Assembly (NCBI GenBank): GCA_045545595.1
Contig: JAZQBG010000019.1
Coordinates: 1 to 22,136, forward strand
Source: Bacilli bacterium
GTDB taxonomy: Bacteria; Bacillota_I; Bacilli_A; RF39; UBA660
Reading direction: 5' to 3'
Length of the DNA: 22,136 nt
In this document: one piece after another, positions 3,230 to 21,960 of the stretch
Layout of the letters: each line of letters opens with the position of its first letter
How positions within the stretch are numbered: position 1 is the stretch's first letter
Program-made: the position numbers and the translations under genes
Notes under the pieces: model-generated
Seen by the model: only the letters and a program-made list of their open reading frames with translations
What the model was told of the DNA's origin: nothing
The model's database searches: none

Positions 3230-5223
3230 AGTTTTTTTGCTCCTTCATTCAAATTACTAACTCTAAGTTCAGCTATTCTCTCAAGTCTATCATTATCTCC
3301 ATGTATCCATATATTATCAAATGTTGCGGTTACTTCTGGTCCTAACTTTTCTACAAAACTTCTTACTACTTCTACATGTTCATCACTTACACTTGATAAA
3401 CCTAAAGCTGTCGCGTATTTTTCTGACAAGTTCATATTTAAATCACTTTCTGTATAGTTGTTATTTATTACATCTTCTACTGTAATTACTTGTTCTCTAC
3501 AGAAATTTACAAAGTCATATGTTACTTCTTCTCCTACTAATCCTCTTATCATCTCTGGCTTACCTGTTGTATATAATACCTTTGATGCCATCTCCCATTT
3601 TCTTGGGTCTGCATTAGGTTTTTCTCCTGTATATTCTGTTCTTAATGCTTCTATTCCTTTGTATGCTATAAAGGCATATACTGCTGGATGTATCTTTGTT
3701 TTTACTTCTTCTTTCTTATAATCTAATCTTTGATATTTTTCTTCTGGTGTCGATGCCCACTTTAACCAACTCTCTACTGTTGTCTCTATATATACATGAC
3801 AAAATCTATTATACAGTGGTTCTGTTAATTCGTTTGCTGACAATGAATCAGAAAGCTCATTTCCTGCCGCTACTACTCTTGCATTCTCTGGTAATTTCCA
3901 TTTACCATTTACTTCTCTATCTAATACTAGATTAAATGCCATGTTTTGTATACTTGGTAATGCATTTGTTATTTCATCTAAAAATACTATATGTATCTTA
4001 TCTTTTTCTTTTTCGCATCTCTCTTCTAGATTAACTAACCATGTTGGTTTTATATCTATTATCTTTTTACTACTTTCTATTAATTTATCAAATGTTATTT
4101 CACCTTTATCATACATTGGTTTTAACATTTCAAATGTTGCCTGGTCAGTCATAGCTACACTTTTACCATTTAAACTTTCTGGTGTGGCATTAGCTAGGTA
4201 TATTATTTCACAATCTGGATCTAATTGTTTTACTCTGGCACTTTTACCCTCACTACTTCTACCATGTAATAGTACTGATATTCCACTTTGTACTGAAGCT
4301 TTTATTATATCTTCTTCACTTACTTTTTCAAAATTAAAGTTATATGGGTTTTTTCTTCTATTATTTTCTTCTTTTTGTTCCTTTATTTCAGTACCTAAAT
4401 CCATATATATTGTTTGGAAATTTAACATTTCTTTTGACAAATATTTATCCATAAACTCTTTCATATCAGTTTTAGAAAAATCACCTTTATAGTCTCTTGT
4501 ATTTTTAAACTGTATACCTGAAACTATTATTTCTTCTGTAATCATTAATTTTGATCTTTCATCTACTAACCACTTTACTGGTTCAACTTCAACCCATACA
4601 TAATCACCACGTGTATAAGTTTCTCCATTTGATAATATAAATATCTCATCTTTAGAATTAGCTCGTACTCTTACATATTTTTTCCCGTTATATTCATATT
4701 CAGCATGAACTTTTGGACAAAAAACTTCGTCATAATCATAACACATTATTGAATCAGTTATGTATGCATTGTTATTTTTATTTAATCTTAAAGCAAGAAA
4801 GGTATCCTCTAATTTGTCTTGTATATTTTTAGGCGCTGCACTTCTTGGATAATAACCATACTCTACTTCAAATATTCCATCTTTTGATCTTCCACTCACT
4901 CCGTTCGTGGGGATTGATTGGACGCTAGAGAACGGTAAAGCGGGGCGTACCCCAACAGTACGTTTATTAACATAGTTGTTGTTACTATCACCACCGATGT
5001 TAACGACGCGCGCGTCATTATCCTGATCATCAGTTTTAGTCCAATACCATCCTGTTCTTTTATCTAGTGTACGAGTATAGTCTACATAATATTTGTTACT
5101 TACATATCCACCTAAAAGAATCGCAAAATCTGTTATCGCCGCTTTTGTTCCTCTTTTCTTTATTACATCTAGTGCCTTATCTCCAAATATTTGACTTTCT
5201 TCTAATAATGTTAGTTCATTCAT
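3226..5223 (-). CDS. DGR target protein, paralog 1: N-terminal variable (C-type-lectin/FGE-like, GVRPAL-type) domain fused to an AAA+ ATPase (MoxR/AAA_5-like)
   Basis: 665-aa ORF with AGGTGA RBS 7 nt before the ATG at 5223. No signal peptide or TM segment. Residues ~55-97 read GWYWTKT...ARVV...GVRPALPF, the pattern seen in small DGR-type variable ligand-binding domains. The VR covers residues 71-94. The central part has Walker A GRSSEGKS, Walker B IVFLDEITN, VVAAGN and YNRF motifs. Confidence 0.9.
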   Translation of the reverse strand: MNELTLLEESQIFGDKALDVIKKRGTKAAITDFAILLGGYVSNKYYVDYTRTLDKRTGWYWTKTDDQDNDARVVNIGGDSNNNYVNKRTVGVRPALPFSSVQSIPTNGVSGRSKDGIFEVEYGYYPRSAAPKNIQDKLEDTFLALRLNKNNNAYITDSIMCYDYDEVFCPKVHAEYEYNGKKYVRVRANSKDEIFILSNGETYTRGDYVWVEVEPVKWLVDERSKLMITEEIIVSGIQFKNTRDYKGDFSKTDMKEFMDKYLSKEMLNFQTIYMDLGTEIKEQKEENNRRKNPYNFNFEKVSEEDIIKASVQSGISVLLHGRSSEGKSARVKQLDPDCEIIYLANATPESLNGKSVAMTDQATFEMLKPMYDKGEITFDKLIESSKKIIDIKPTWLVNLEERCEKEKDKIHIVFLDEITNALPSIQNMAFNLVLDREVNGKWKLPENARVVAAGNELSDSLSANELTEPLYNRFCHVYIETTVESWLKWASTPEEKYQRLDYKKEEVKTKIHPAVYAFIAYKGIEALRTEYTGEKPNADPRKWEMASKVLYTTGKPEMIRGLVGEEVTYDFVNFCREQVITVEDVINNNYTESDLNMNLSEKYATALGLSSVSDEHVEVVRSFVEKLGPEVTATFDNIWIHGDNDRLERIAELRVSNLNEGAKKL
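3874..5223 (-). repeat. ~1.35-kb direct repeat with 1-1341 (paralogous 5' parts of the two target genes)
   Basis: Offset is 3882 at the gene starts and VRs and 3873 at the window's left edge, so copy 1 is 9 nt (3 codons) longer inside a divergent linker (about 4370-4440 versus 495-560). The remainder is near-identical by eye. Confidence 0.85.
4941..5014 (-). repeat. DGR variable repeat VR1
   Basis: 74 nt, colinear with the TR. There are 8 mismatches: 5 at coding-strand A positions of the TR (AAC>ATC, GAT>GGT, AAT>GAT, AAT>TAT, AAT>ACT) and 3 non-A changes, all within the last 15 nt. Encodes ARVVNIGGDSNNNYVNKRTVGVRP. Confidence 0.9.
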
Positions 5224-5275: not shown

Positions 5276-6307
5276 TTATTCTCCATATTTATGAGGAAAA
5301 GTATCATTTTTAAGTTTTAAACTTTCATCTGTATTTTTAATATGATTATAAAAAGCATTTTTTCTAATATAGACATATTCATCATCCACTATATTTTTAT
5401 TCCTTAATTTGTTTAGCGTTTTTAAATGTCTTTTTAATCTAATCTTTGATGATGAACGTAATTTTCTTAATATCCGTCCATTACTATTTAAAATGTGTCT
5501 ATATCCAAGGAAATCTATTCCATTTTTAACCATACCTATTTGTGTTTTAAAATTCAATTCTAAATTAAGTTCATTGTTACATAACTCATCTATTTTATTT
5601 AAACAATAATTTAAATAATTTTTATCTCGGTGAATTAGTATCATATCATCCATGTATCGGATATAACCTTTAATTCTTAGTTTTTCTTTTATTAATCTAT
5701 CTACTTTATTTAAATAGAAAAGCGCAAACAATTGACTGGATTGATTGCCAAGTGGTAATCCTGCACTAGCATTATCTGGTTGTTCTTTTACTAGTTTTTT
5801 AATTAACCACATTTCATCAAGTGAAAATTCTACATTTTTAAGTAAATTTAATAATACTTGGTGGTCAATACTAGGAAAGTATTTTTTTATATCACATTTT
5901 AAATAGTAGATTTTATTATTACGTTCTTTTAAGTATTCATGTCGTAAAAATTTTTCTAATCTATTTATTGCAAAGCTACTACCCTTACCTTTTCTACAAG
6001 CAGCGTTGTCATATATTAATTTTTTCTCTATTTTAGGTTTAAGAACATTATCACAAAAACATCTTATAACTATTCTATCCTTAAATGGCGGTGCCTCAAT
6101 TAATCTTTTCTTTGGTTCATAAATTAAAAATGTTTTATATTTTCTTAATTTATATTTTTTTGTAGTTAGTTCTTTTTTTAAATTATTTAAATTAACTGCA
6201 AGATTAATTTCAAACCTAATAACTTCACCCTTATGTTGTTTAGATTTTCTACACTCTAAATAGGCATTGTATAAATTTTCAAAAGTAAATATTTCTTCTA
6301 ACTCCAT
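5276..6307 (-). CDS. DGR-type reverse transcriptase
   Basis: The ORF track starts at 6331 (GTG). I prefer ATG 6307 (MELEEIF...), which follows an AGGGGG RBS 6 nt upstream. Motifs: KCDIKKYFPSIDH, GLPLGNQSSQLFALFYLN (the [I/L]GxxxSQ signature that separates DGR RTs from retron and group II RTs), and YIRYMDDMILI (YxDD). It sits next to the TR. Confidence 0.92.
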   Translation of the reverse strand: MELEEIFTFENLYNAYLECRKSKQHKGEVIRFEINLAVNLNNLKKELTTKKYKLRKYKTFLIYEPKKRLIEAPPFKDRIVIRCFCDNVLKPKIEKKLIYDNAACRKGKGSSFAINRLEKFLRHEYLKERNNKIYYLKCDIKKYFPSIDHQVLLNLLKNVEFSLDEMWLIKKLVKEQPDNASAGLPLGNQSSQLFALFYLNKVDRLIKEKLRIKGYIRYMDDMILIHRDKNYLNYCLNKIDELCNNELNLELNFKTQIGMVKNGIDFLGYRHILNSNGRILRKLRSSSKIRLKRHLKTLNKLRNKNIVDDEYVYIRKNAFYNHIKNTDESLKLKNDTFPHKYGE

Positions 6308-6526
6308 AAATTTCCCCCTAAAAAAGAACACTCCGTGTAACTTGTAAAAAACAGATTATCTATTCGTTACTTGTGTAAGTGTTCATGTTTTTCCATCGCA
6401 CTTATTTCTTTTAGCGGTTAGAAAAGAGAAAAATTCCTTCACTTTAAATGCTGATATATTTTACTTAAAATATATTTATCTGATTTGTTTTATAGATTCA
6501 CATTGTAAATCTTTTCAAAAGTGAAT
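6308..6526 (-). ncRNA. DGR RNA spacer region between TR and RT (expected to be co-transcribed with the TR)
   Basis: Non-coding, with no credible ORF. Two inverted repeats: GATTCAC 6495-6501 / GTGAATC 6521-6527, abutting the TR 3' end, and GAACACT 6326-6332 / AGTGTTC 6378-6384, just upstream of the RT RBS. In characterised DGRs the TR-adjacent spacer is part of the functional RNA. Confidence 0.55.
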
Positions 6527-6600
6527 CGGGACGAACCCCACCATTACGTTTATTAACATTGTTGTTGTTACTATTACCATCGTTGTTAACGACGCGCGCG
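6527..6600 (-). repeat. DGR template repeat (TR)
   Basis: An intergenic 74-nt copy of the VRs. The coding-strand sequence is rich in AAC/AAT codons (9 AAY codons) and contains 23 adenines. It begins with CGCGCGCG and ends in a GGGG-UUCG-UCCC hairpin, a strikingly GC-rich patch in an AT-rich genome. Confidence 0.9.
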
Positions 6601-6672
6601 AAAAATACTCTACAAACAAGTACGCACACATAAAAATTTTTCCCTTAATCAAAAGTCTTTCGACTTAAAATC

Positions 6673-7257
6673 CTAATGTTTTGTATTCCATCTTTTATCA
6701 TCACTTTTCTTCCAAGCAATAGTTAAATTGATTGCTTCAGCAACTTGCATAGAAATTTGTTTATATTGTTTTTTTAATATACAAGAAGAATTAAAGGCAA
6801 GTAATGAAATATACCCTAATAGTTTTAGTTTTACTATAGCCTGTTTTTGTAATTCTTCTCTTCTTAATTTGTTATCTGTTGAGTCTATCCTTATATAATT
6901 AGCTTGCAATAAATATTCTAATGTATCTATACAATAGTTTTGCATACGATTAACAAATACTCCTCTAAATTTTTTAGGTGACTTTTCTGTAACTGTAATA
7001 ACGTATGCGGCTAATTTCTTTACAACAGTTATTACAACCAATTCATTAGCGTTATATGGTATTTTAGATATTGTTTCTAAATCTTTGTCCTCTTGCATTA
7101 TCACTTCTTTAGTTAATTTTTCATCAAATTTTATGTTATTTGCTGTAGCGATACCTTTTTTAATCTGTACTATATCTTCTACACTATTTGGATTTCTATC
7201 ATGTACATCTATTTGTTTTGGTATTTTCAAATTATTATCTCTACTTACTTGAAACAT
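6673..7257 (-). CDS. avd: Avd-like accessory variability determinant (four-helix-bundle type) with an N-terminal extension
   Basis: 194-aa ORF with AGAGGAG RBS 7 nt upstream. It lies directly upstream of the TR on the same strand. The C-terminal ~125 aa is helical and basic, with the general look of Avd/'23S rRNA-intervening-sequence' family proteins (KKFRGVFVNRMQNYCIDTLEYLLQAN ... AEAINLTIAWKKSDDKR). Assignment rests on position and pattern only. Confidence 0.6.
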   Translation of the reverse strand: MFQVSRDNNLKIPKQIDVHDRNPNSVEDIVQIKKGIATANNIKFDEKLTKEVIMQEDKDLETISKIPYNANELVVITVVKKLAAYVITVTEKSPKKFRGVFVNRMQNYCIDTLEYLLQANYIRIDSTDNKLRREELQKQAIVKLKLLGYISLLAFNSSCILKKQYKQISMQVAEAINLTIAWKKSDDKRWNTKH

Positions 7258-7347
7258 ATATTAACTCCTCTAAATTGTTTGTTTATATAAAACTAATTAA
7301 CAATGTAGTCTATTTTATCATAAAATATTTTGAAAGGAGTAATAAAA

Positions 7348-7608
7348 ATGTATACTGAATATTATGAAACATATCCAACATACACTTATACCAGTTCAGA
7401 AAACCCATCTAACATGACTACATATAGTTATAATCAAAATGATGGTGATAGATTAATTGGTGGATTTGGGGTTCCATTTGTATTAGGCGGGATAACAGGT
7501 GGACTACTTGCACCTGCATTTTATCGTCCATACTATAGACCACCATTCTATGGATCGTATAGACCATATAGACCATATTATAGGCCTCCATTTTATGGAA
7601 GATGGTAA
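7348..7608 (+). CDS. Small Tyr/Pro-rich protein with a central Gly-rich hydrophobic segment and tandem YRPYYRPPFYG repeats
   Basis: The ORF track starts at TTG 7330. ATG 7348 is preferred because AAAGGAG lies 8 nt upstream. The two repeat units differ only by synonymous changes, and a rho-independent terminator follows. Confidence 0.65.
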   Translation: MYTEYYETYPTYTYTSSENPSNMTTYSYNQNDGDRLIGGFGVPFVLGGITGGLLAPAFYRPYYRPPFYGSYRPYRPYYRPPFYGRW

Positions 7609-7697: not shown

Positions 7698-8438
7698 ATG
7701 AAAAGATTATATGAACAAGTACCTATAGATACTTGGAAGAGGATTGCAGACAGAGTTAAAAGATTAAATATAAATGGTTATACAAGCGATGAATTTAATT
7801 CAAATTTGAAGATATTACAAAATTTATTGTCGGATTTAGATTTATCATTAGAAGAAGGAAAGAAAGAACCAAAAATTGACGATCAAATTGGATTATCATC
7901 ATTACTATCTTCTATTTATTGTACAAGTATTATTCCAGAAAGTTCTATACAAGACTTTTGCGAATATATTTATGCATTAGATGATTTAGGTGTAGAAAAC
8001 ATAACATATAGACCAGTTAATTTTCCTAATAAAATTAATACAAAATTAGAGTATAGCGATGATTATGTACATATGCAAAAACTTATAAGTAAATGTTATA
8101 CAGATGGAAAGTTTAAATTATCAAGACCAGATATAATTAGTTATTGTGATTATAATCGATATTTAATTACAAATATAAAAGATGCTTCATATATATTAAT
8201 CACTAAAATTTCTCATCAAAGACCATATGCATTAAAAGAACCACAAGTATTAGAATCTGAAATTGTAATTAAAAACTTTAAAGGTAATTTACCAGATAAA
8301 AAAGAATTAATAAATATAGAATTCCCAAAATTAAAAATTCATTCTAGAAAAATTAGTTGGGGCGAAAGTCCAGAATATAGTCAAATATTTAATGAATATA
8401 TTAATGAAGATATAATTGTTAAAAAACTAAAAAAATAG
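7698..8438 (+). CDS. Hypothetical protein
   Basis: 246-aa ORF with GAAGGT RBS and a terminator downstream. I recognise no motifs. Confidence 0.6.
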   Translation: MKRLYEQVPIDTWKRIADRVKRLNINGYTSDEFNSNLKILQNLLSDLDLSLEEGKKEPKIDDQIGLSSLLSSIYCTSIIPESSIQDFCEYIYALDDLGVENITYRPVNFPNKINTKLEYSDDYVHMQKLISKCYTDGKFKLSRPDIISYCDYNRYLITNIKDASYILITKISHQRPYALKEPQVLESEIVIKNFKGNLPDKKELINIEFPKLKIHSRKISWGESPEYSQIFNEYINEDIIVKKLKK

Positions 8439-8440
8439 CA

Positions 8441-8474
8441 ATAAGCCATCAGTTTAACCTGATGGCTTATTTTA
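8441..8474. terminator. Bidirectional rho-independent terminator
   Basis: Perfect 12-bp stem ATAAGCCATCAG / CTGATGGCTTAT with a 6-nt loop. T runs follow on both strands. It lies between convergent ORFs. Confidence 0.8.
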
Positions 8475-8484
8475 AATATATAAA

Positions 8485-8643
8485 TTATTGTGAAACACTT
8501 ATTTCATTTAACATTTGTTCTTTTATTTTATCAATATCAGTAAAGAAAAGGTTAATACCTCGTTTCTTCATTTCTAACATATTATTAAAATTATCTAATA
8601 TTTGATCTTTTATATGGTATATATAACCGGTTTGTACTTTCAT
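8485..8643 (-). CDS. 52-aa ORF downstream of the tandem RNA repeats (MKVQTGYIYHIKDQILDNFNNMLEMKKRGINLFFTDIDKIKEQMLNEISVSQ)
   Basis: Below the ORF track size cutoff. AAGAGGA RBS lies 7 nt before ATG 8643, and the ORF ends just before the bidirectional terminator. Function unknown. The N-terminus is vaguely reminiscent of ToxN/AbiQ-type toxin N-termini, from memory only. Confidence 0.45.
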   Translation of the reverse strand: MKVQTGYIYHIKDQILDNFNNMLEMKKRGINLFFTDIDKIKEQMLNEISVSQ

Positions 8644-8675
8644 ATCATCATCCTCTTATATAAAAAGTATAACAA

Positions 8676-8714
8676 AATTGAAAAGAAAACTCTATTCAAA
8701 AGAATAAAGTTTTC
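8676..8714 (-). terminator. Rho-independent terminator (minus strand) between the repeat array and the 52-aa ORF
   Basis: 13-bp stem (8685-8697 / 8702-8714, with one G-U pair on the minus strand), a 4-nt loop, and a U run (UUUUCAAUU) following on the minus strand only. Confidence 0.75.
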
Positions 8715-8717
8715 AAA

Positions 8718-8815
8718 CATTTTCGTTCGGGATAATTTATTACTCGCACCACCCGAGAGCGAGAAACATTGTCGACCGGAATAACTTATTACTCGCACCA
8801 TCCGGGAGCGAGAAA
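8718..8815 (-). repeat. Two tandem 49-nt repeats, each predicted to form an H-type pseudoknot (structured RNA; type III antitoxin-like or tandem aptamer)
   Basis: Period is exactly 49 nt (the AAACATT motif recurs with its C at 8718, 8767 and 8816). 42 of 49 positions are identical. Stem 1 is CUCGC/GCGAG in both copies. Stem 2 is UCGGG/CCCGA in one copy and CCGGA/UCCGG in the other, i.e. two compensatory base-pair changes. The stems are interleaved in the order S1-5', S2-5', S1-3', S2-3'. Confidence 0.7.
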
Positions 8816-8835
8816 CATTTACAAATTGTGCATTT

Positions 8836-8864
8836 AATAATGCAATAATAATGCGAAAAGTCAA
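8836..8864 (-). promoter_or_regulatory. Candidate sigma-A promoter for the repeat array
   Basis: Minus strand: TTGACT (8864-8859), a 17-nt spacer ending in TGC, then ATTATT (8841-8836). The -35 element is good, the -10 is weak, and there is a TGn-like extension. Confidence 0.35.
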
Positions 8865-8874
8865 TTAATATTAA

Positions 8875-9642
8875 CTACTTAGCTAAAAAATATGCGTAAT
8901 TTCTATCTATATATTTAAATACTACGTTGAGTACAATTATTGAGATAAACATCAATTCTATATTTAAGAACATTGATAGTACTCCAACTACAATTCCAAA
9001 TATAATTTGTATAAATGCAGTATTAGGAGTTGATTTAAATTCTGGAATTACAAATAAACATAAAAACAGTAATATATAATCAATATTATCAAAAGACATA
9101 TTAAACAACATTTTAATAATAATGAATATTATACTAGCAATACTTATTCTAAACTTTGTTGACCTATTTGTAATAAGAGTAATTATTGAAACAAACAATA
9201 AAAAAGAATAAATAAATATATTATAATTACCAAATACTAAACTATTAGTTGTAAATATCATAAATAAATATATTACTAAACTAGAAATTGTATATATATT
9301 AATTTCATTATAGAATTTCGATATTAATACTACTCCAATATTCACAAATAACAATAGTAAATATGGAATATTTAATGGTGTTATAAAGACTACAATAATA
9401 CTAAAAATTAAATCTTTGTAATAATCGTTAATATTAATTTTATTAGTTTTAATATAATCAAATATTATACTTGTAAATAAACTTGCTACAATTGAAATAA
9501 TAAACAAAACTATACTATTTAATTCACCAATGTAACATCTATAAATCATAAATGGAATTAGTGTTAAAAAATTTGTTAGGATTATCTTTTGAGCATTATT
9601 CTTATCTTTTATGAAAGGCCCATTATTTACTATAAATTCCAC
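8875..9642 (-). CDS. Polytopic membrane protein, possibly RnfD/NqrB-like (short)
   Basis: 255-aa, very hydrophobic ORF. Its GTG start shares one nucleotide with the TAG stop of the upstream RnfC-like gene. The N-terminus NGPFIKDKNNAQKIILTNFLTLIP resembles the RnfD N-terminal pattern, but the protein is shorter than typical RnfD. Confidence 0.5.
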   Translation of the reverse strand: MEFIVNNGPFIKDKNNAQKIILTNFLTLIPFMIYRCYIGELNSIVLFIISIVASLFTSIIFDYIKTNKININDYYKDLIFSIIVVFITPLNIPYLLLLFVNIGVVLISKFYNEINIYTISSLVIYLFMIFTTNSLVFGNYNIFIYSFLLFVSIITLITNRSTKFRISIASIIFIIIKMLFNMSFDNIDYILLFLCLFVIPEFKSTPNTAFIQIIFGIVVGVLSMFLNIELMFISIIVLNVVFKYIDRNYAYFLAK

Positions 9643-10904
9643 TATAAATCACCATCCTTCTTCTTAGAATTAACAATTTCTCTTAAATCAATTTTTGAAG
9701 GACAAATGTATGAACATAAACCACAGTTTACACATTTATTTGGATTTAGTTTTTCCAGCATTTTAGTATTATCTGTATTTCTAATTAATATTGGTGATAA
9801 ACGAACAGGACAAACATTTACACATTTACCACAGTTAATACAATCTATTTCATTATATGATTCACAATCTAATGCCACTATACCAGATAATTTTTTATTA
9901 ATAACTACATCATCACTATCTAATGCATTACCAATCATTGGACCATTAGAAATTAGTGCTAGTCTTTTCTTAGTGTAATCACCAATATAATTTATTATAT
10001 CTTTAACTAGAGTTCCATCTTTAACAAGAATATTTTGAGGATTTTTAATATTTTCTCCACTAACAGTTATAACTCTTTCAATAACTGGTTTTCTGTATTT
10101 TAATACCCTATATATTTCATAAATTGTAGATATATTATTTACAATTATACATTTTTCAATAGGATTATTTTTAATGTCTATATTATATAAATATTTAATT
10201 AATGATTTTTCATATCCAATAGGATATATATCTGGTACTGTTTTAATTCTTATTTTAGGATAAGAACCAATATATTCGATTAAGTCATTCATTGCACTTT
10301 GATTATAATCTTTAAGAGCAATAACACACTCTTCAATTTCAAATATTTCCATCAAAGAATCTATTGTTTCTAAAATTTCAGGAGTATGTAAATTAAGAAT
10401 TGTGTAGTCTGAAGTTAAATATGGTTCACTTTCTATAGCATTGACAACTAATTTTTTAATTTTTAACTCCATACCATATTTATAATAAGTAGGATAATCA
10501 TTCCCACTCATACCTACTACACCACAGTTTTTAAATAGTTCTACAACTTCTTCTTTAGTGTATTGGTTTATCTTTTTCTTAGCACCTAATTTTTCTTTTT
10601 CTTTTTCTCTAAAATCATTTTCTATTTTAATTGTTTTAACTTTTTTATTATCTATATATGTTTTATCTACAAATTCTTTTACTATGCCACTGACACTACT
10701 AAATATCGGAAAATTATATTTGTCATTTGAACGTGCAACAATTTGATTTTTATATACGTAGTCTCCTTCTTTTACTAGAATTTGACAATTATTATTTTTA
10801 TACGTAACAAGCGGGATGTATATATAATCTACTTTTTCCATTGTAGATACTTCTCTTTTTAAAGAAATATTTTTATTATTAATTATTTTTTTACCTCTTA
10901 TCAT
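9642..10904 (-). CDS. RnfC-like iron-sulfur protein (two 4Fe-4S ferredoxin motifs) with a degenerate nucleotide-binding motif
   Basis: ATG 10904 (MIRGKK...) is preferred over the track's TTG at 10919 because GGGAGGG lies 6 nt upstream. Has an RnfC-type N-terminal barrel region (VSGIVKEF), SGNDYPTYYKY where GGAGFPTHVK is expected, ESEPYLTSD where ECEPYLT is expected, and CINCGKCVNVCP plus CVNCGLCSYICP. Confidence 0.7.
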   Translation of the reverse strand: MIRGKKIINNKNISLKREVSTMEKVDYIYIPLVTYKNNNCQILVKEGDYVYKNQIVARSNDKYNFPIFSSVSGIVKEFVDKTYIDNKKVKTIKIENDFREKEKEKLGAKKKINQYTKEEVVELFKNCGVVGMSGNDYPTYYKYGMELKIKKLVVNAIESEPYLTSDYTILNLHTPEILETIDSLMEIFEIEECVIALKDYNQSAMNDLIEYIGSYPKIRIKTVPDIYPIGYEKSLIKYLYNIDIKNNPIEKCIIVNNISTIYEIYRVLKYRKPVIERVITVSGENIKNPQNILVKDGTLVKDIINYIGDYTKKRLALISNGPMIGNALDSDDVVINKKLSGIVALDCESYNEIDCINCGKCVNVCPVRLSPILIRNTDNTKMLEKLNPNKCVNCGLCSYICPSKIDLREIVNSKKKDGDL

Positions 10905-10944
10905 ATACAACCCTCCCAATAATCCAATTATACAATGTTTTTTG

Positions 10945-12590: not shown

Positions 12591-13439
12591 CTATTTATTT
12601 TTAAATTTAGAAATGTCAAATAATTTCTTTGCTTTTTGCTTTTGTTCTTGTTTTGATTTAATATAATCACCATGAAGTTTTAGTGCAACACTCTCTAGAG
12701 TTTTAAGGATTTCTTCTGAATGATATTTATTTAACTTAGATGCAAACTCTTTATAAATTATAGCGTATTTATCTATTTCACTAGCTAATCTTTCAACCCT
12801 ATTCAAATCAATAGTTGGTATTTTAATACTATTGATTAATTGTTTTTGTTGTTCATTATCTATAATGAGATTGTCATTTTTAAACGAATTAACAAAATTA
12901 TTAAAATCAGATATTAGTTTTTTATAACCATTTTTAACAGGTATACATATATAATCATTTTCTAAAGTTATAATACTCTTTTCACAATCAAATCTTTTAA
13001 TATATAAAAGTTTTTCATTTGTTTCAAGATTTTTAGTAAATACAATATCATCATTTGGTGATATACAAACTCCATTTTTAACATTATAGGTAATATTATG
13101 ATCGCTTTTATTAGTTATTTTGGTAGATGTAATTTCATATGTATGCCCATTTTCATTTTTATAATTTATTACATCCCAAGGTAAGTCAACTAAATTATGA
13201 GTTAATTTATATGGCTTTCCGTTATTTTCAAAATTAATCTTTTCATATAATTTAATATAGTCAAAACATGAATATGTTATTTCATCATAATTTTTACCAT
13301 TTAGTATAATATTAATTATTCTCAAATCTTTATTATCTGACCATACAGAACCTACTTCAACACTTCCTATTTTAGTTTCTACTTTATAATTTCCTTCTGG
13401 CAGATTACAAAGCAATACTGCAATATCCTTCATTTCCAT
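12591..13439 (-). CDS. Hypothetical protein
   Basis: 282-aa ORF with AAGGAG RBS 8 nt upstream. No recognisable motifs. The C-terminus looks like a coiled coil. Confidence 0.6.
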   Translation of the reverse strand: MEMKDIAVLLCNLPEGNYKVETKIGSVEVGSVWSDNKDLRIINIILNGKNYDEITYSCFDYIKLYEKINFENNGKPYKLTHNLVDLPWDVINYKNENGHTYEITSTKITNKSDHNITYNVKNGVCISPNDDIVFTKNLETNEKLLYIKRFDCEKSIITLENDYICIPVKNGYKKLISDFNNFVNSFKNDNLIIDNEQQKQLINSIKIPTIDLNRVERLASEIDKYAIIYKEFASKLNKYHSEEILKTLESVALKLHGDYIKSKQEQKQKAKKLFDISKFKNK

Positions 13440-21535: not shown

Positions 21536-21611
21536 TGGTGTCCCGCCCGAGGCTCGAACTCGGGACCCTTTGATTAAAAGTCAAATGCTCTACCAACTGA
21601 GCTAACGGGAC
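21536..21611 (-). tRNA. tRNA-Lys (anticodon UUU)
   Basis: The reverse complement GUCCCGUUAGCUCAGUUGGUAGAGCAUUUGACUUUUAAUCAAAGGGUCCCGAGUUCGAGCCUCGGGCGGGACACCA folds as a cloverleaf. Anticodon loop CUUUUAA; encoded CCA. Confidence 0.93.
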
Positions 21612-21619
21612 AAATAATT

Positions 21620-21694
21620 TGGCTGCCTCGGCTAGATTCGAACTAGCGCATGTCAGAGTCAAAGTCTGATGCCTTACCGCTTGGCTACGAGGCA
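21620..21694 (-). tRNA. tRNA-Gln (anticodon UUG)
   Basis: Reverse complement UGCCUCGUAGCCAAGCGGUAAGGCAUCAGACUUUGACUCUGA...GCAGCCA. Anticodon loop CUUUGAC. Resembles Firmicutes tRNA-Gln. Confidence 0.9.
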
Positions 21695-21709
21695 ATCATT
21701 CAAAAAGAC

Positions 21710-21793
21710 TGGTGGAGGGAGATGGATTTGAACCATCGAACCCGAAGGAACAGATTTACAGACTGCCGCGTTTGACCACTTCGCTACCCTTCC
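21710..21793 (-). tRNA. tRNA-Tyr (anticodon GUA, long variable arm)
   Basis: Reverse complement GGAAGGGUAGCGAAGUGGUCAAACGCGGCAGUCUGUAAAUCUGUUCCUUCGGGUUCGAUGGUUCAAAUCCAUCUCCCUCCACCA. Close to B. subtilis tRNA-Tyr as I recall it. Confidence 0.88.
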
Positions 21794-21800
21794 AAAAAAA

Positions 21801-21876
<76 letters not shown>

Positions 21877-21883
21877 AAAAAAA

Positions 21884-21960
21884 TGGTGGGCGATATAGGA
21901 CTCGAACCTATGACCCCTTGCTTGTAAGGCAAGTGCTCTAACCAACTGAGCTAATCGCCC
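21884..21960 (-). tRNA. tRNA-Val (anticodon UAC)
   Basis: Reverse complement GGGCGAUUAGCUCAGUUGGUUAGAGCACUUGCCUUACAAGCAAGGGGUCAUAGGUUCGAGUCCUAUAUCGCCCACCA. Confidence 0.92.

What the first reader, a model, noticed from the sequence alone, without database searches (positions are those of the whole stretch)
8485..8866. Promoter, two 49-nt pseudoknot repeats with compensatory mutations, terminator, then a 52-aa ORF: type III TA-like or tandem-riboswitch-like module
On the minus strand, a TTGACT-type promoter is followed by two head-to-tail 49-nt units. Each folds as an interleaved two-stem (H-type) pseudoknot. Stem 2 differs between the copies by two compensatory pair changes (UCGGG/CCCGA versus CCGGA/UCCGG), which argues for selection on RNA structure. 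Next comes a strong 13-bp terminator that is oriented for the minus strand only, then a good RBS and a 52-aa ORF ending at a bidirectional terminator. The order repeats - terminator - ORF is the hallmark layout of type III toxin-antitoxin loci (ToxIN, CptIN, TenpIN), whose antitoxin RNAs form pseudoknots. However, the ORF is about one-third the size of known ToxN-like toxins. It could therefore be a truncated relic, a new mini-toxin, or a tandem aptamer controlling a small peptide through the terminator.
Basis: partly seen in the sequence, partly recalled or inferred. Interest (0 to 1): 0.65.

Follow-up and report, generated by a model that had tools for sequence, protein, structure and literature searches.

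The report
Decayed CptIN type III toxin-antitoxin locus
This is the remnant of a known kind of RNA-protein toxin-antitoxin system (CptIN): the two pseudoknot antitoxin RNA repeats and the terminator are intact, but the toxin gene has lost its catalytic core through an in-frame deletion, so it is an ordinary decaying locus and not a new mini-toxin or riboswitch.

Summary
On the minus strand there are two head-to-tail 49-nt units (8819-8771 and 8770-8722), a 13-bp intrinsic terminator, an RBS, a 52-aa ORF and a second terminator.

The same repeat unit occurs in more than 117 genomes of uncultured gut Bacilli, "Tenericutes" and Clostridia MAGs, usually as exactly two copies. Both pseudoknot stems covary strongly across 150 distinct units.

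In 58 arrays the repeats and terminator are followed by a ~155-165-aa ORF. This ORF is a full-length homologue of the CptN toxin of Eubacterium rectale (PDB 4RMO, E = 2.5e-17). [quoted passage not shown]

The window's 52-aa ORF is CptN residues 1-13 fused in frame to residues 121-159. The 107 missing codons include the catalytic Ser-Ser-Lys/Arg motif. A 14-nt deletion has also removed the family's -10 promoter box.

Syntenic relatives carry independent lesions at the same chromosomal site: a stop codon, a different deletion, and only one repeat unit. Short cptN remnants behind complete repeat arrays were already reported in 2012.

Verdict: this is a degenerate member of a known family. The riboswitch and mini-toxin readings are rejected. 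Interest is low.

The parts
8859..8864 (-). -35 hexamer TTGACT of the cptIN promoter
   Evidence: The same TTGAC(T/A) lies upstream of arrays in relatives.
8851..8852 (-). Junction of a 14-nt deletion that removed the family's -10 box. Relatives read TTGACTTTTnGCA-TAAAATATAGTATA-TTATTATTGCAT. The best remaining -10 is CATTAT (8842-8837) at a 16-nt spacing.
   Evidence: Alignments, and the upstream listing. A TTGAYN-N16-18-TANAWT match lies upstream of 85 of 132 arrays but not in the window.
8829..8844 (-). Leader hairpin UGCAUU-AUUA-AAUGCA between the promoter and the first unit. Relatives have the equivalent UGCAYUUG..AGUGCA.
   Evidence: Read and conserved in position. Its function is inferred (5' stabiliser); it was not tested.
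8771..8819 (-). CptI antitoxin unit 1 (49 nt). H-type pseudoknot: stem 1 is 8812-8808 with 8796-8792; stem 2 (CCGGA/UCCGG) is 8805-8801 with 8780-8776.
   Evidence: Covariation.
8722..8770 (-). CptI antitoxin unit 2 (49 nt). Stem 1 is 8763-8759 with 8747-8743; stem 2 (UCGGG/CCCGA) is 8756-8752 with 8731-8727. It is identical to the commonest unit in relatives that have intact toxins.
   Evidence: (10 identical copies in other loci).
8715..8721 (-). Third copy of the unit-boundary motif AAUGUUU. It closes unit 2 and is the inferred third processing site.
   Evidence: Read. A1, A2 and U6 of the unit are at least 90% conserved. The analogy is to CptI_Er, which is cleaved after A45 before AAGUUU.
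8675..8714 (-). Intrinsic terminator (13-bp stem, UUUU loop, U-tract) between the antitoxin array and the toxin ORF.
   Evidence: An equivalent hairpin follows 55 of 58 arrays that have an intact toxin.
8651..8657 (-). Ribosome-binding site AAGAGGA of the cptN remnant.
   Evidence: Read.
8485..8643 (-). cptN remnant of 52 aa: residues 1-13 joined in frame to residues 121-159 of the full-length toxin. The deletion junction lies at codons 13/14 (about 8605/8604). 107 codons are missing.
8440..8471 (.). Terminator hairpin shared with the convergent 246-aa gene (7698-8438, plus strand).
   Evidence: I2.

Best explanation
The region is a degenerate cptIN locus, a type III (protein toxin / RNA antitoxin) toxin-antitoxin system.

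**How the intact family works (by homology).** One sigma-70 promoter drives a short leader hairpin and two ~49-nt CptI units, each of which folds as an H-type pseudoknot. An intrinsic terminator stops most transcripts, and read-through produces the mRNA of CptN, a ~160-aa endoribonuclease. By analogy with the solved E. rectale CptIN complex, CptN cuts the precursor at the conserved unit boundaries (GA(N)-AAUGUUU). It stays bound to the pseudoknot products as an inactive 2:2 complex. It is released to cleave RNA when antitoxin supply stops.

**State of the locus in this window.** The RNA part and the terminator are intact. The toxin gene has an in-frame deletion of codons 14-120 that removes the beta-core and the catalytic Ser-Ser-Lys/Arg motif. 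A 14-nt deletion has also removed the -10 box. The locus can therefore neither kill nor process its RNA. At most it yields a weakly transcribed, unprocessed ~150-nt RNA and a 52-aa fragment. It is a relic, caught in the order expected for TA decay: the toxin goes first and the antitoxin last.

**Shown:** homology, covariation, the lesions, and independent decay in syntenic relatives.

**Inferred:** processing site, stoichiometry, transcription level, and loss of all activity.
For: Almost all are gut Bacilli, 'Tenericutes' or Clostridia MAGs. nhmmer resolved 247 units in 138 arrays, of which 107 have exactly two units.
2. Downstream of the terminator, 58 arrays have an intact ~155-165-aa ORF, 22 have a degraded one, 41 have none within 1.1 kb, and 17 are cut by a contig end.
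3. A full-length relative matches the CptN toxin 4RMO_A over residues 5-150 of 159 with E = 2.5e-17.
4. On 150 distinct units, 95.1% of cells are paired, against 27-53% when partners are slid. Eight of 10 pairs show changes on both sides, including all 5 pairs of stem 2, and 0 of 500 shuffles reach the observed values.
5. The unit has the same architecture as CptI_Er: AAGUUU-type 5' tail, 5-bp stem 1, 1-2-nt loop 1, 5-bp stem 2, an A/U-rich loop 2 containing AUAAAU, and a 3' tail ending GA. These come from the primer sequence and residue numbering in PMC4627078. The alignment score is reached by only 17 of 2000 shuffles.
6. The window ORF aligns to residues 1-13 and 121-159 of the closest intact toxin. 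Every near-invariant core residue (R34, P35, Y37, W47, S52, S53, K57, Y58, C72, Q90, F93, P94) lies in the gap. The DNA is collinear up to codon 13 and again from codon 121.
7. The -10 block present in L108, L014, L005 and L121 is missing here.
8. Syntenic loci L121-L124 (YqeH-RnfC-RnfD-locus-Y/P-rich ORF-bAvd-like) carry, at the same site, one unit, an intact -10, and a cptN with a GTG start, a W47 stop and a different internal deletion.
9. Blower et al. 2012 already list cptIN loci with 45-101-aa 'toxins' behind full repeats and terminators (PMC3401426).
Against: - Nothing here shows transcription, processing or lack of toxicity directly.
- Both units keep all ten pairs, and unit 2 is identical to units of functional-looking loci. 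The RNA could therefore still be under selection.
- The deletion is in frame and the RBS and start codon are intact, so a 52-aa product may still be made.
- The contig is a metagenome assembly, and the deletion allele was found nowhere else. An assembly artefact cannot be formally excluded.
- The window is the whole contig, so other cptN copies in the genome cannot be checked.
Confidence: 0.87

Rival explanations
1. The toxin is dead, but the two-unit CptI array is kept because it is useful on its own. As an orphan antitoxin it could neutralise a paralogous CptN elsewhere in the genome, or an incoming CptN on a mobile element or phage (anti-addiction or immunity RNA).
For: - Both units are structurally perfect and the terminator is intact.
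- Toxin-less arrays are common: 41 of 121 classifiable arrays.
- Some genomes carry several arrays or loci. L008, L019 and L093 have three arrays in a row, and OZ006970.1 gives both L048 and L076.
Against: - The native -10 box is deleted in the window.
- Toxin-less arrays look eroded: 55% of their units have all ten pairs against 80% next to intact toxins, and 28 of 41 have a terminator-like hairpin against 55 of 58.
- The syntenic relative has dropped to one unit.
- CptI antitoxins did not cross-neutralise non-cognate CptN in experiments (PMC4627078).
Confidence: 0.08
2. The 52-aa ORF is a functional small protein: a mini-toxin, or an RNA-binding fragment that still partners with the repeats.
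For: - The deletion is in frame, and the RBS, ATG and stop codon are intact.
- The retained C-terminal segment aligns with CptN_Er residues 121-152. That stretch includes positions equivalent to V129, M132 and F139, which line one antitoxin-binding pocket.
Against: - The whole beta-core and the Ser-Ser-Lys/Arg catalytic motif are missing.
- No other contig in 5.8 billion protein clusters carries this fusion. Every other hit is a C-terminal fragment of a longer or broken toxin.
- Remnants elsewhere have different, unrelated breakpoints, for example L043, L100, L001 and L121. This argues for random decay and not for a selected product.
- No Pfam or PADLOC family matches.
Confidence: 0.03
3. The two units are tandem riboswitch aptamers, or a leader, controlling the downstream gene through the terminator.
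For: Two similar structured domains lie directly upstream of an intrinsic terminator, and there is covariation.
Against: - No Rfam family reaches its threshold. The best sub-threshold match is MCS4 at 21.8 bits against a gathering score of 56, E about 1.
- There is no anti-terminator alternative pairing.
- The only conserved downstream gene is a CptN toxin.
- The unit matches the solved CptI antitoxin architecture.
Confidence: 0.01
4. The deletions are artefacts of metagenome assembly, and the real genome carries an intact cptIN.
For: The allele is unique to this contig. The repeats and AT-rich sequence are hard to assemble.
Against: - There are two separate clean deletions. One is in frame and lies between GA(T/A)GAA microhomologies.
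- Syntenic relatives from four independent samples also have a broken cptN at this site.
Confidence: 0.02

Closest known systems
CptIN of Eubacterium rectale (PDB 4RMO; Rao et al. 2015, PMC4627078)
   Same: - Gene order is promoter, about 2 tandem repeats, intrinsic terminator, toxin.
- Full-length relatives of the window ORF align end to end with CptN_Er (E = 2.5e-17) and keep the IPLSS(K/R) motif.
- The RNA unit is an H-type pseudoknot with a short loop 1, an A/U-rich loop 2 containing AUAAAU, an AA(U)GUUU 5' tail and a GA-type 3' tail.
   Different: - The unit is 49 nt, against 45 nt in CptI_Er.
- Primary sequence is mostly different. The Asp81, Ser85 and Tyr104 positions of CptN_Er are not conserved in this subfamily by the alignment.
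- The window copy itself lacks residues 14-120 and the -10 box, so it is not a working system.
Short-'toxin' cptIN loci listed by Blower et al. 2012 (Bryantella formatexigens 66 and 45 aa, Lachnospiraceae 9_1_43BFAA 54 aa, Pyramidobacter 81 aa; PMC3401426)
   Same: A full set of repeats plus a terminator is followed by an ORF that is only part of a CptN. The window's 52-aa ORF is the same phenomenon.
   Different: Those authors left open whether the partial proteins are active. Here the breakpoints are mapped and show loss of the catalytic core. Syntenic relatives show independent lesions, which supports decay.
ToxIN (Pectobacterium atrosepticum, Bacillus thuringiensis) and AbiQ
   Same: These share the type III logic and the toxin superfamily. 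One relative scores marginally on Pfam ToxN_toxin (25.4 bits against a cut-off of 25).
   Different: They have 34-36-nt repeats in 2.9-5.5 copies, form a 3:3 triangular complex, and belong to a different toxin family. The other relative tested does not match PF13958.
Rfam MCS4 (Mycoplasma sRNA, RF02713)
   Same: A weak sub-threshold cmscan match covers unit 2 plus the terminator.
   Different: The score is 21.8 bits against a gathering score of 56, with E about 1. It is treated as chance.

Membership tests
cptIN (type III toxin-antitoxin) | Tandem array of short direct repeats immediately upstream of the toxin gene, on the same strand | tested here: met
   Two units of 49 nt. 107 of 138 related arrays also have two units. 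The published cptIN range is 40-48 nt in 1.9-3.4 copies, so 49 nt lies just outside it.
cptIN (type III toxin-antitoxin) | Rho-independent terminator between the repeats and the toxin ORF | tested here: met
   A 13-bp stem plus U-tract at 8714-8675, on the minus strand only.
cptIN (type III toxin-antitoxin) | Downstream ORF homologous to CptN | tested here: met
   Full-length ORFs of relatives match 4RMO_A at E = 2.5e-17. The window ORF matches these relatives only at residues 1-13 and 121-159 (tblastn E = 4e-13 for the C-terminal part; alignment).
cptIN (type III toxin-antitoxin) | Complete toxin with the ribonuclease active site (Ser-Ser-Arg/Lys triad and beta-core) | tested here: not met
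   Residues 14-120, including S52-S53-K54, are deleted in the window. They are present in 58 related loci. The window copy is therefore a remnant of a family member and not a functional one.
cptIN (type III toxin-antitoxin) | Antitoxin unit folds as an H-type pseudoknot | tested here: met
   Covariation supports both stems: 95.1% of cells are paired and 8 of 10 pairs have changes on both sides. This is computational only.
cptIN (type III toxin-antitoxin) | Toxin cleaves the repeat precursor and is neutralised by the processed RNA; toxicity can be rescued | not testable with these tools
   This needs kill/rescue and RNA-processing assays. Only the conserved boundary motif AAUGUUU (three copies) is seen.
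ToxIN / AbiQ family (Pfam PF13958) | Toxin matches the ToxN_toxin profile above the gathering score | tested here: inconclusive
   One relative scores 25.4 bits against a cut-off of 25. Another has no hit, and the window ORF has no hit. The relation is at superfamily level only.
Riboswitch or cis-regulatory leader | Match to a curated RNA family, or consistent association with one class of metabolic or transport gene together with an expression platform | tested here: not met
   No Rfam hit reaches the gathering score and only chance-level hits appear at E up to 10. The downstream gene is a toxin or nothing.

The most novel reading that the evidence does not exclude
Structurally perfect CptI arrays that have lost their toxin, as here and in about a third of related arrays, are retained as stand-alone 'immunity' RNAs. 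They would neutralise CptN toxins brought in by mobile elements or phages, or encoded by paralogous loci. This would be an RNA version of the anti-addiction orphan antitoxins known for type II systems.
Probability: 0.07. Interest if true: 0.55.

Novelty: new member of a known kind. Interest (0 to 1): 0.2.

Why it matters
- It settles the annotation. The 52-aa ORF should be called a cptN pseudogene fragment, and the repeats a CptI antitoxin array. The repeats are absent from Rfam, so they are easily mistaken for a riboswitch or an unknown sRNA.
- It extends the cptIN family to a large, previously undescribed 49-nt subfamily in uncultured gut Bacilli, "Tenericutes" and Clostridia. The subfamily comprises 138 arrays and 181 distinct units, and it gives unusually clean covariation support for the CptI pseudoknot.
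- It gives a snapshot of TA decay: 58 intact, 22 degraded and 41 toxin-less arrays. This fits the expectation that toxins are lost before antitoxins.
- None of this changes what is understood about type III systems.

Tried and rejected
- **Rfam.** The gathering scan of the whole window returned only five tRNAs. The permissive scan of 8400-8950 returned only chance-level hits, the best being MCS4 at 21.8 against 56 bits. A known riboswitch or sRNA is rejected.
- **Protein family scans of the 52-aa ORF.** Pfam and PADLOC returned nothing meaningful. The peptide is too short and too broken to be classified on its own. Classification came from full-length relatives.
- **MFE folding of the whole leader.** This pairs unit 1 with unit 2 (z = -2.9). 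It cannot represent pseudoknots and is contradicted by the covariation result, so it was not used.
- **Synteny.** No synteny with the 119 pattern-derived loci was found. Syntenic relatives were reached only through the fragment P0026.
- **Phage and plasmid collections.** There was no match in either, and only one viral-contig hit. There is no evidence that this subfamily is phage- or plasmid-borne.
- **Search for the same deletion junction in metagenome contigs.** Both the exact and the degenerate pattern returned nothing.
- **A weak tblastn hit.** CptN residues 1-93 hit the 282-aa ORF at 12591-13439 at E = 0.027. Pfam does not support it and it was dismissed as chance in an AT-rich proteome.
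- **Supplementary tables of Blower 2012.** These are not held, so it could not be checked whether this repeat sequence was already listed.

Full report
**1. Observation**

Tandem Repeats Finder finds one 49-nt-period array at 8715-8819, with 2.1 copies, 87% matches and score 161. It is the only repeat of this kind in the window. The repeat finder gives two 49-nt copies at 86% identity.

In minus-strand phase, unit 1 is 8819-8771 and unit 2 is 8770-8722. Each unit has an interleaved pair of 5-bp stems:
- Stem 1 is CUCGC/GCGAG in both units.
- Stem 2 is CCGGA/UCCGG in unit 1 and UCGGG/CCCGA in unit 2.

Two base pairs therefore differ on both sides between the copies, as claimed.

A third copy of the unit-initial motif AAUGUUU (8721-8715) follows unit 2 and runs straight into the terminator stem. 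The terminator (8714-8685 plus U-tract) is called on the minus strand only. Two terminator-like sites were found in the region, against 0.1 expected from shuffles.

The RBS AAGAGGA, the 52-aa ORF (8643-8485) and the hairpin at 8471-8440 are all present.

The promoter is the weak part. TTGACT is there, but the best -10 is CATTAT. Promoter-like matches in this AT-rich stretch are no commoner than in shuffles (5 against 5.2).

**2. What it is**

*No known RNA family matches.* Rfam has nothing here at gathering thresholds. A permissive scan gave only chance-level matches; the best was MCS4 at 21.8 bits against a gathering score of 56.

Nearly all are uncultured gut Bacilli, "Tenericutes" or Clostridia MAGs, often with two matches 49-50 nt apart. 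Two hits (L009, L042) are high-GC chance matches and were dropped.

An nhmmer profile of the units then resolved 247 units in 138 arrays:

| Units per array | Arrays |
|---|---|
| 2 | 107 |
| 1 | 29 |
| 3 | 1 |
| 4 | 1 |

*The conserved downstream gene is a toxin.* In many loci the array and terminator are followed by a ~155-165-aa ORF beginning MKxxTGYxYHIKDEFF... and containing ILWFIPLSSK. One such protein (L031) matches the CptN toxin of Eubacterium rectale (4RMO_A) over residues 5-150 of 159 at E = 2.5e-17. Pfam's ToxN_toxin model is only marginal: 25.4 bits against a cut-off of 25 for one relative, and no hit for another. The family is therefore cptIN, one of the three published type III toxin-antitoxin families (PMC3401426).

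**3. The RNA**

On 150 distinct units (alignment A1), I tested the two-stem pseudoknot explicitly.

| Measure | Result |
|---|---|
| Cells forming standard pairs | 95.1% |
| Same, with 3' partners slid by 1-3 columns | 27-53% |
| Pairs with changes on both sides | 8 of 10 |
| Stem 2 pairs with changes on both sides | 5 of 5 |
| Shuffles reaching the observed values | 0 of 500 |

Stem 2 shows many pair types, for example CG 44, UA 42, AU 12 and GU 7 at its outer pair. Stem 1 varies less, partly because the search pattern fixed it. Even so, bystander units show CUCAC/GUGAG, GUCGC/GCGAC and CCGC/GCGG variants.

Loop 2 (UAAUAAAUUAU) is nearly invariant.

The E. rectale antitoxin sequence can be read from the cloning primer in PMC4627078: AAGUUUACCACUGACCGAUAUGUGGUAUAUAAAUGGUCGGGUUGA. 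The paper describes it as follows:
- a 45-nt H-type pseudoknot with a one-base loop 1;
- an A-rich loop 2 (A27-G35) that forms A-minor twists essential for antitoxicity;
- cleavage after A45, leaving a cyclic phosphate.

The window's units have the same layout and share the AA(U)GUUU tail, the AUAAAU in loop 2 and the GA-type 3' end. The alignment score is reached by only 17 of 2000 shuffles. The exact cut site in this subfamily is inferred, not determined.

**4. The 52-aa ORF**

Aligned with intact relatives and CptN_Er (A3; pairwise), the ORF consists of residues 1-13 and 121-159 of the closest intact toxin (L108). Residues 14-120 (107 aa) are absent. That gap contains every near-invariant core position:
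- R34, P35, Y37, W47, S52, S53, K57, Y58, C72, Q90, F93, P94;
- including the Ser-Ser-Lys/Arg motif, which corresponds to the S51-S52-R53 catalytic triad of CptN_Er.

At DNA level the window is collinear with L108, L014 and L005 through the leader, both units, the terminator, the RBS and the first 13 codons. It resumes at ...GAAATATTAGA... The junction lies between GA(T/A)GAA microhomologies.

Other loci have remnants with unrelated breakpoints or frameshifts, for example L043, L100, L001, L075 and L078.

**5. The promoter**

The nearest relatives read TTGACT-TTTnGCATAAAATATAG-TATATT-ATTATTGCAT..., followed by a leader hairpin. The window reads TTGACTTTTCGCA-TTATTATTGCAT. It therefore lacks 14 nt (TAAAATATAGTATA) that include the -10 box. 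A TTGAYN-N16-18-TANAWT match lies within 100 nt upstream of 85 of 132 arrays, but not in the window.

**6. Population picture**

Of 121 arrays whose downstream 1.1 kb could be classified:

| Toxin status | Arrays | Units with all ten pairs | Terminator-like hairpin |
|---|---|---|---|
| Intact | 58 | 80% | 55 of 58 |
| Degraded | 22 | 74% | 21 of 22 |
| None | 41 | 55% | 28 of 41 |

Some frameshifts may be MAG errors, so the degraded count is an upper estimate. The toxin-less arrays look eroded. This fits neutral decay after toxin loss better than a conserved stand-alone role. One caveat applies: every locus was ascertained through at least one perfect core.

**7. Syntenic relatives**

A fragment hit, P0026, led to loci L121-L124 from four samples. 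They have the same neighbourhood as the window: YqeH GTPase, RnfC-like, RnfD-like, the locus, a Y/P-rich small ORF, then a bAvd-like ORF. At this site:
- the -10 box is intact;
- only one unit remains;
- cptN has a GTG start, a stop codon replacing W47, and an internal deletion that differs from the window's. It keeps codons 14 to about 84 and lacks roughly 85-134.

The two lineages therefore broke the same ancestral gene independently. The 246-aa gene of the window (7698-8438) is absent there, so the site is variable.

The window's own deletion junction occurs nowhere else in the protein database or in metagenome contigs.

**8. Mechanism and verdict**

Working members of this subfamily most likely behave like CptIN_Er. 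Terminator-limited read-through keeps RNA in excess. CptN processes the two-unit precursor at the three AAUGUUU boundaries and is held inactive by the pseudoknots.

The window copy has no catalytic toxin and a crippled promoter. It is a relic (confidence about 0.87).

Rival readings:
- A retained orphan antitoxin is not excluded (about 0.08).
- A functional mini-protein is very unlikely (about 0.03).
- An assembly artefact is very unlikely (about 0.02).
- A riboswitch is very unlikely (about 0.01).

**9. Novelty**

The cptIN family, its pseudoknot antitoxin, and even 45-101-aa partial 'toxins' behind full repeat sets are published (PMC3401426; PMC4627078). What is new:
- membership of this large 49-nt subfamily from uncultured gut Bacilli. 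It is absent from Rfam and lies just outside the 40-48-nt range reported in 2012;
- the mapped lesions.

The subfamily shows no sign of being phage- or plasmid-borne: there was one viral-contig hit and none in the phage or plasmid collections. Interest is low.

Noticed in passing
window 5276-7257 (minus strand), with repeats at 6521-6600, 4935-5014 and 1053-1132: This looks like a diversity-generating retroelement. A reverse transcriptase (RVT_1, 5276-6331) sits next to a weakly bAvd-like ORF (6673-7257). An ~80-nt AAC-rich repeat lies between them, and two diverged copies lie inside paralogous ~1.1-kb segments (1-1132 and 3874-5014). On the minus strand most template-to-copy mismatches fall at template adenines, roughly 6 of 10 and 9 of 12.
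   Followed up: partly
L008 4726-5775; also L019 and L093: Three CptI-type arrays lie in a row within about 1 kb, and only the first is followed by a toxin gene. The other two arrays are divergent unit types (UUAAUCGC... and CUCAC/GUGAG) with nothing CptN-like in the next 1.1 kb.
   Followed up: no
window 8771-8819 against 8722-8770; the same in L014, L005, L108, L105 and L114: The stem-2 difference between the first and second unit (CCGGA/UCCGG, then UCGGG/CCCGA) is shared by many related loci. Other clades have identical stems in both units. Whether non-identical units matter, for example to avoid cross-unit mispairing or for the 2:2 complex, is unknown.
   Followed up: no
window 8829-8844 (minus strand) and the equivalent position in relatives: A short leader hairpin (UGCAYU...AGUGCA) between the -10 box and the first unit is conserved in position across many arrays. 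It may be a 5' stabiliser of the antitoxin precursor.
   Followed up: no
window 7698-8438 (plus strand): A 246-aa ORF with no Pfam match lies convergent to the relic. It is absent from the syntenic loci L121-L124, so it is an insertion or deletion polymorphism at this site.
   Followed up: partly
window 7330-7608 (plus strand): A 92-aa Tyr/Pro/Arg-rich ORF (…YRPYYRPPFYGSYRPYRPYYRPPFYGRW) contains a 9-nt tandem repeat. It is conserved in the syntenic relatives as a 90-aa ORF.
   Followed up: no
window 8875-10919 (minus strand): Only an RnfC-like gene (425 aa) and a short RnfD-like gene (255 aa, partial profile match) are present, with no other rnf genes. They are followed upstream by a YqeH-type GTPase. 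The same pair occurs in L121.
   Followed up: no
window 21539-21960 (minus strand): A cluster of five tRNA genes.
   Followed up: no
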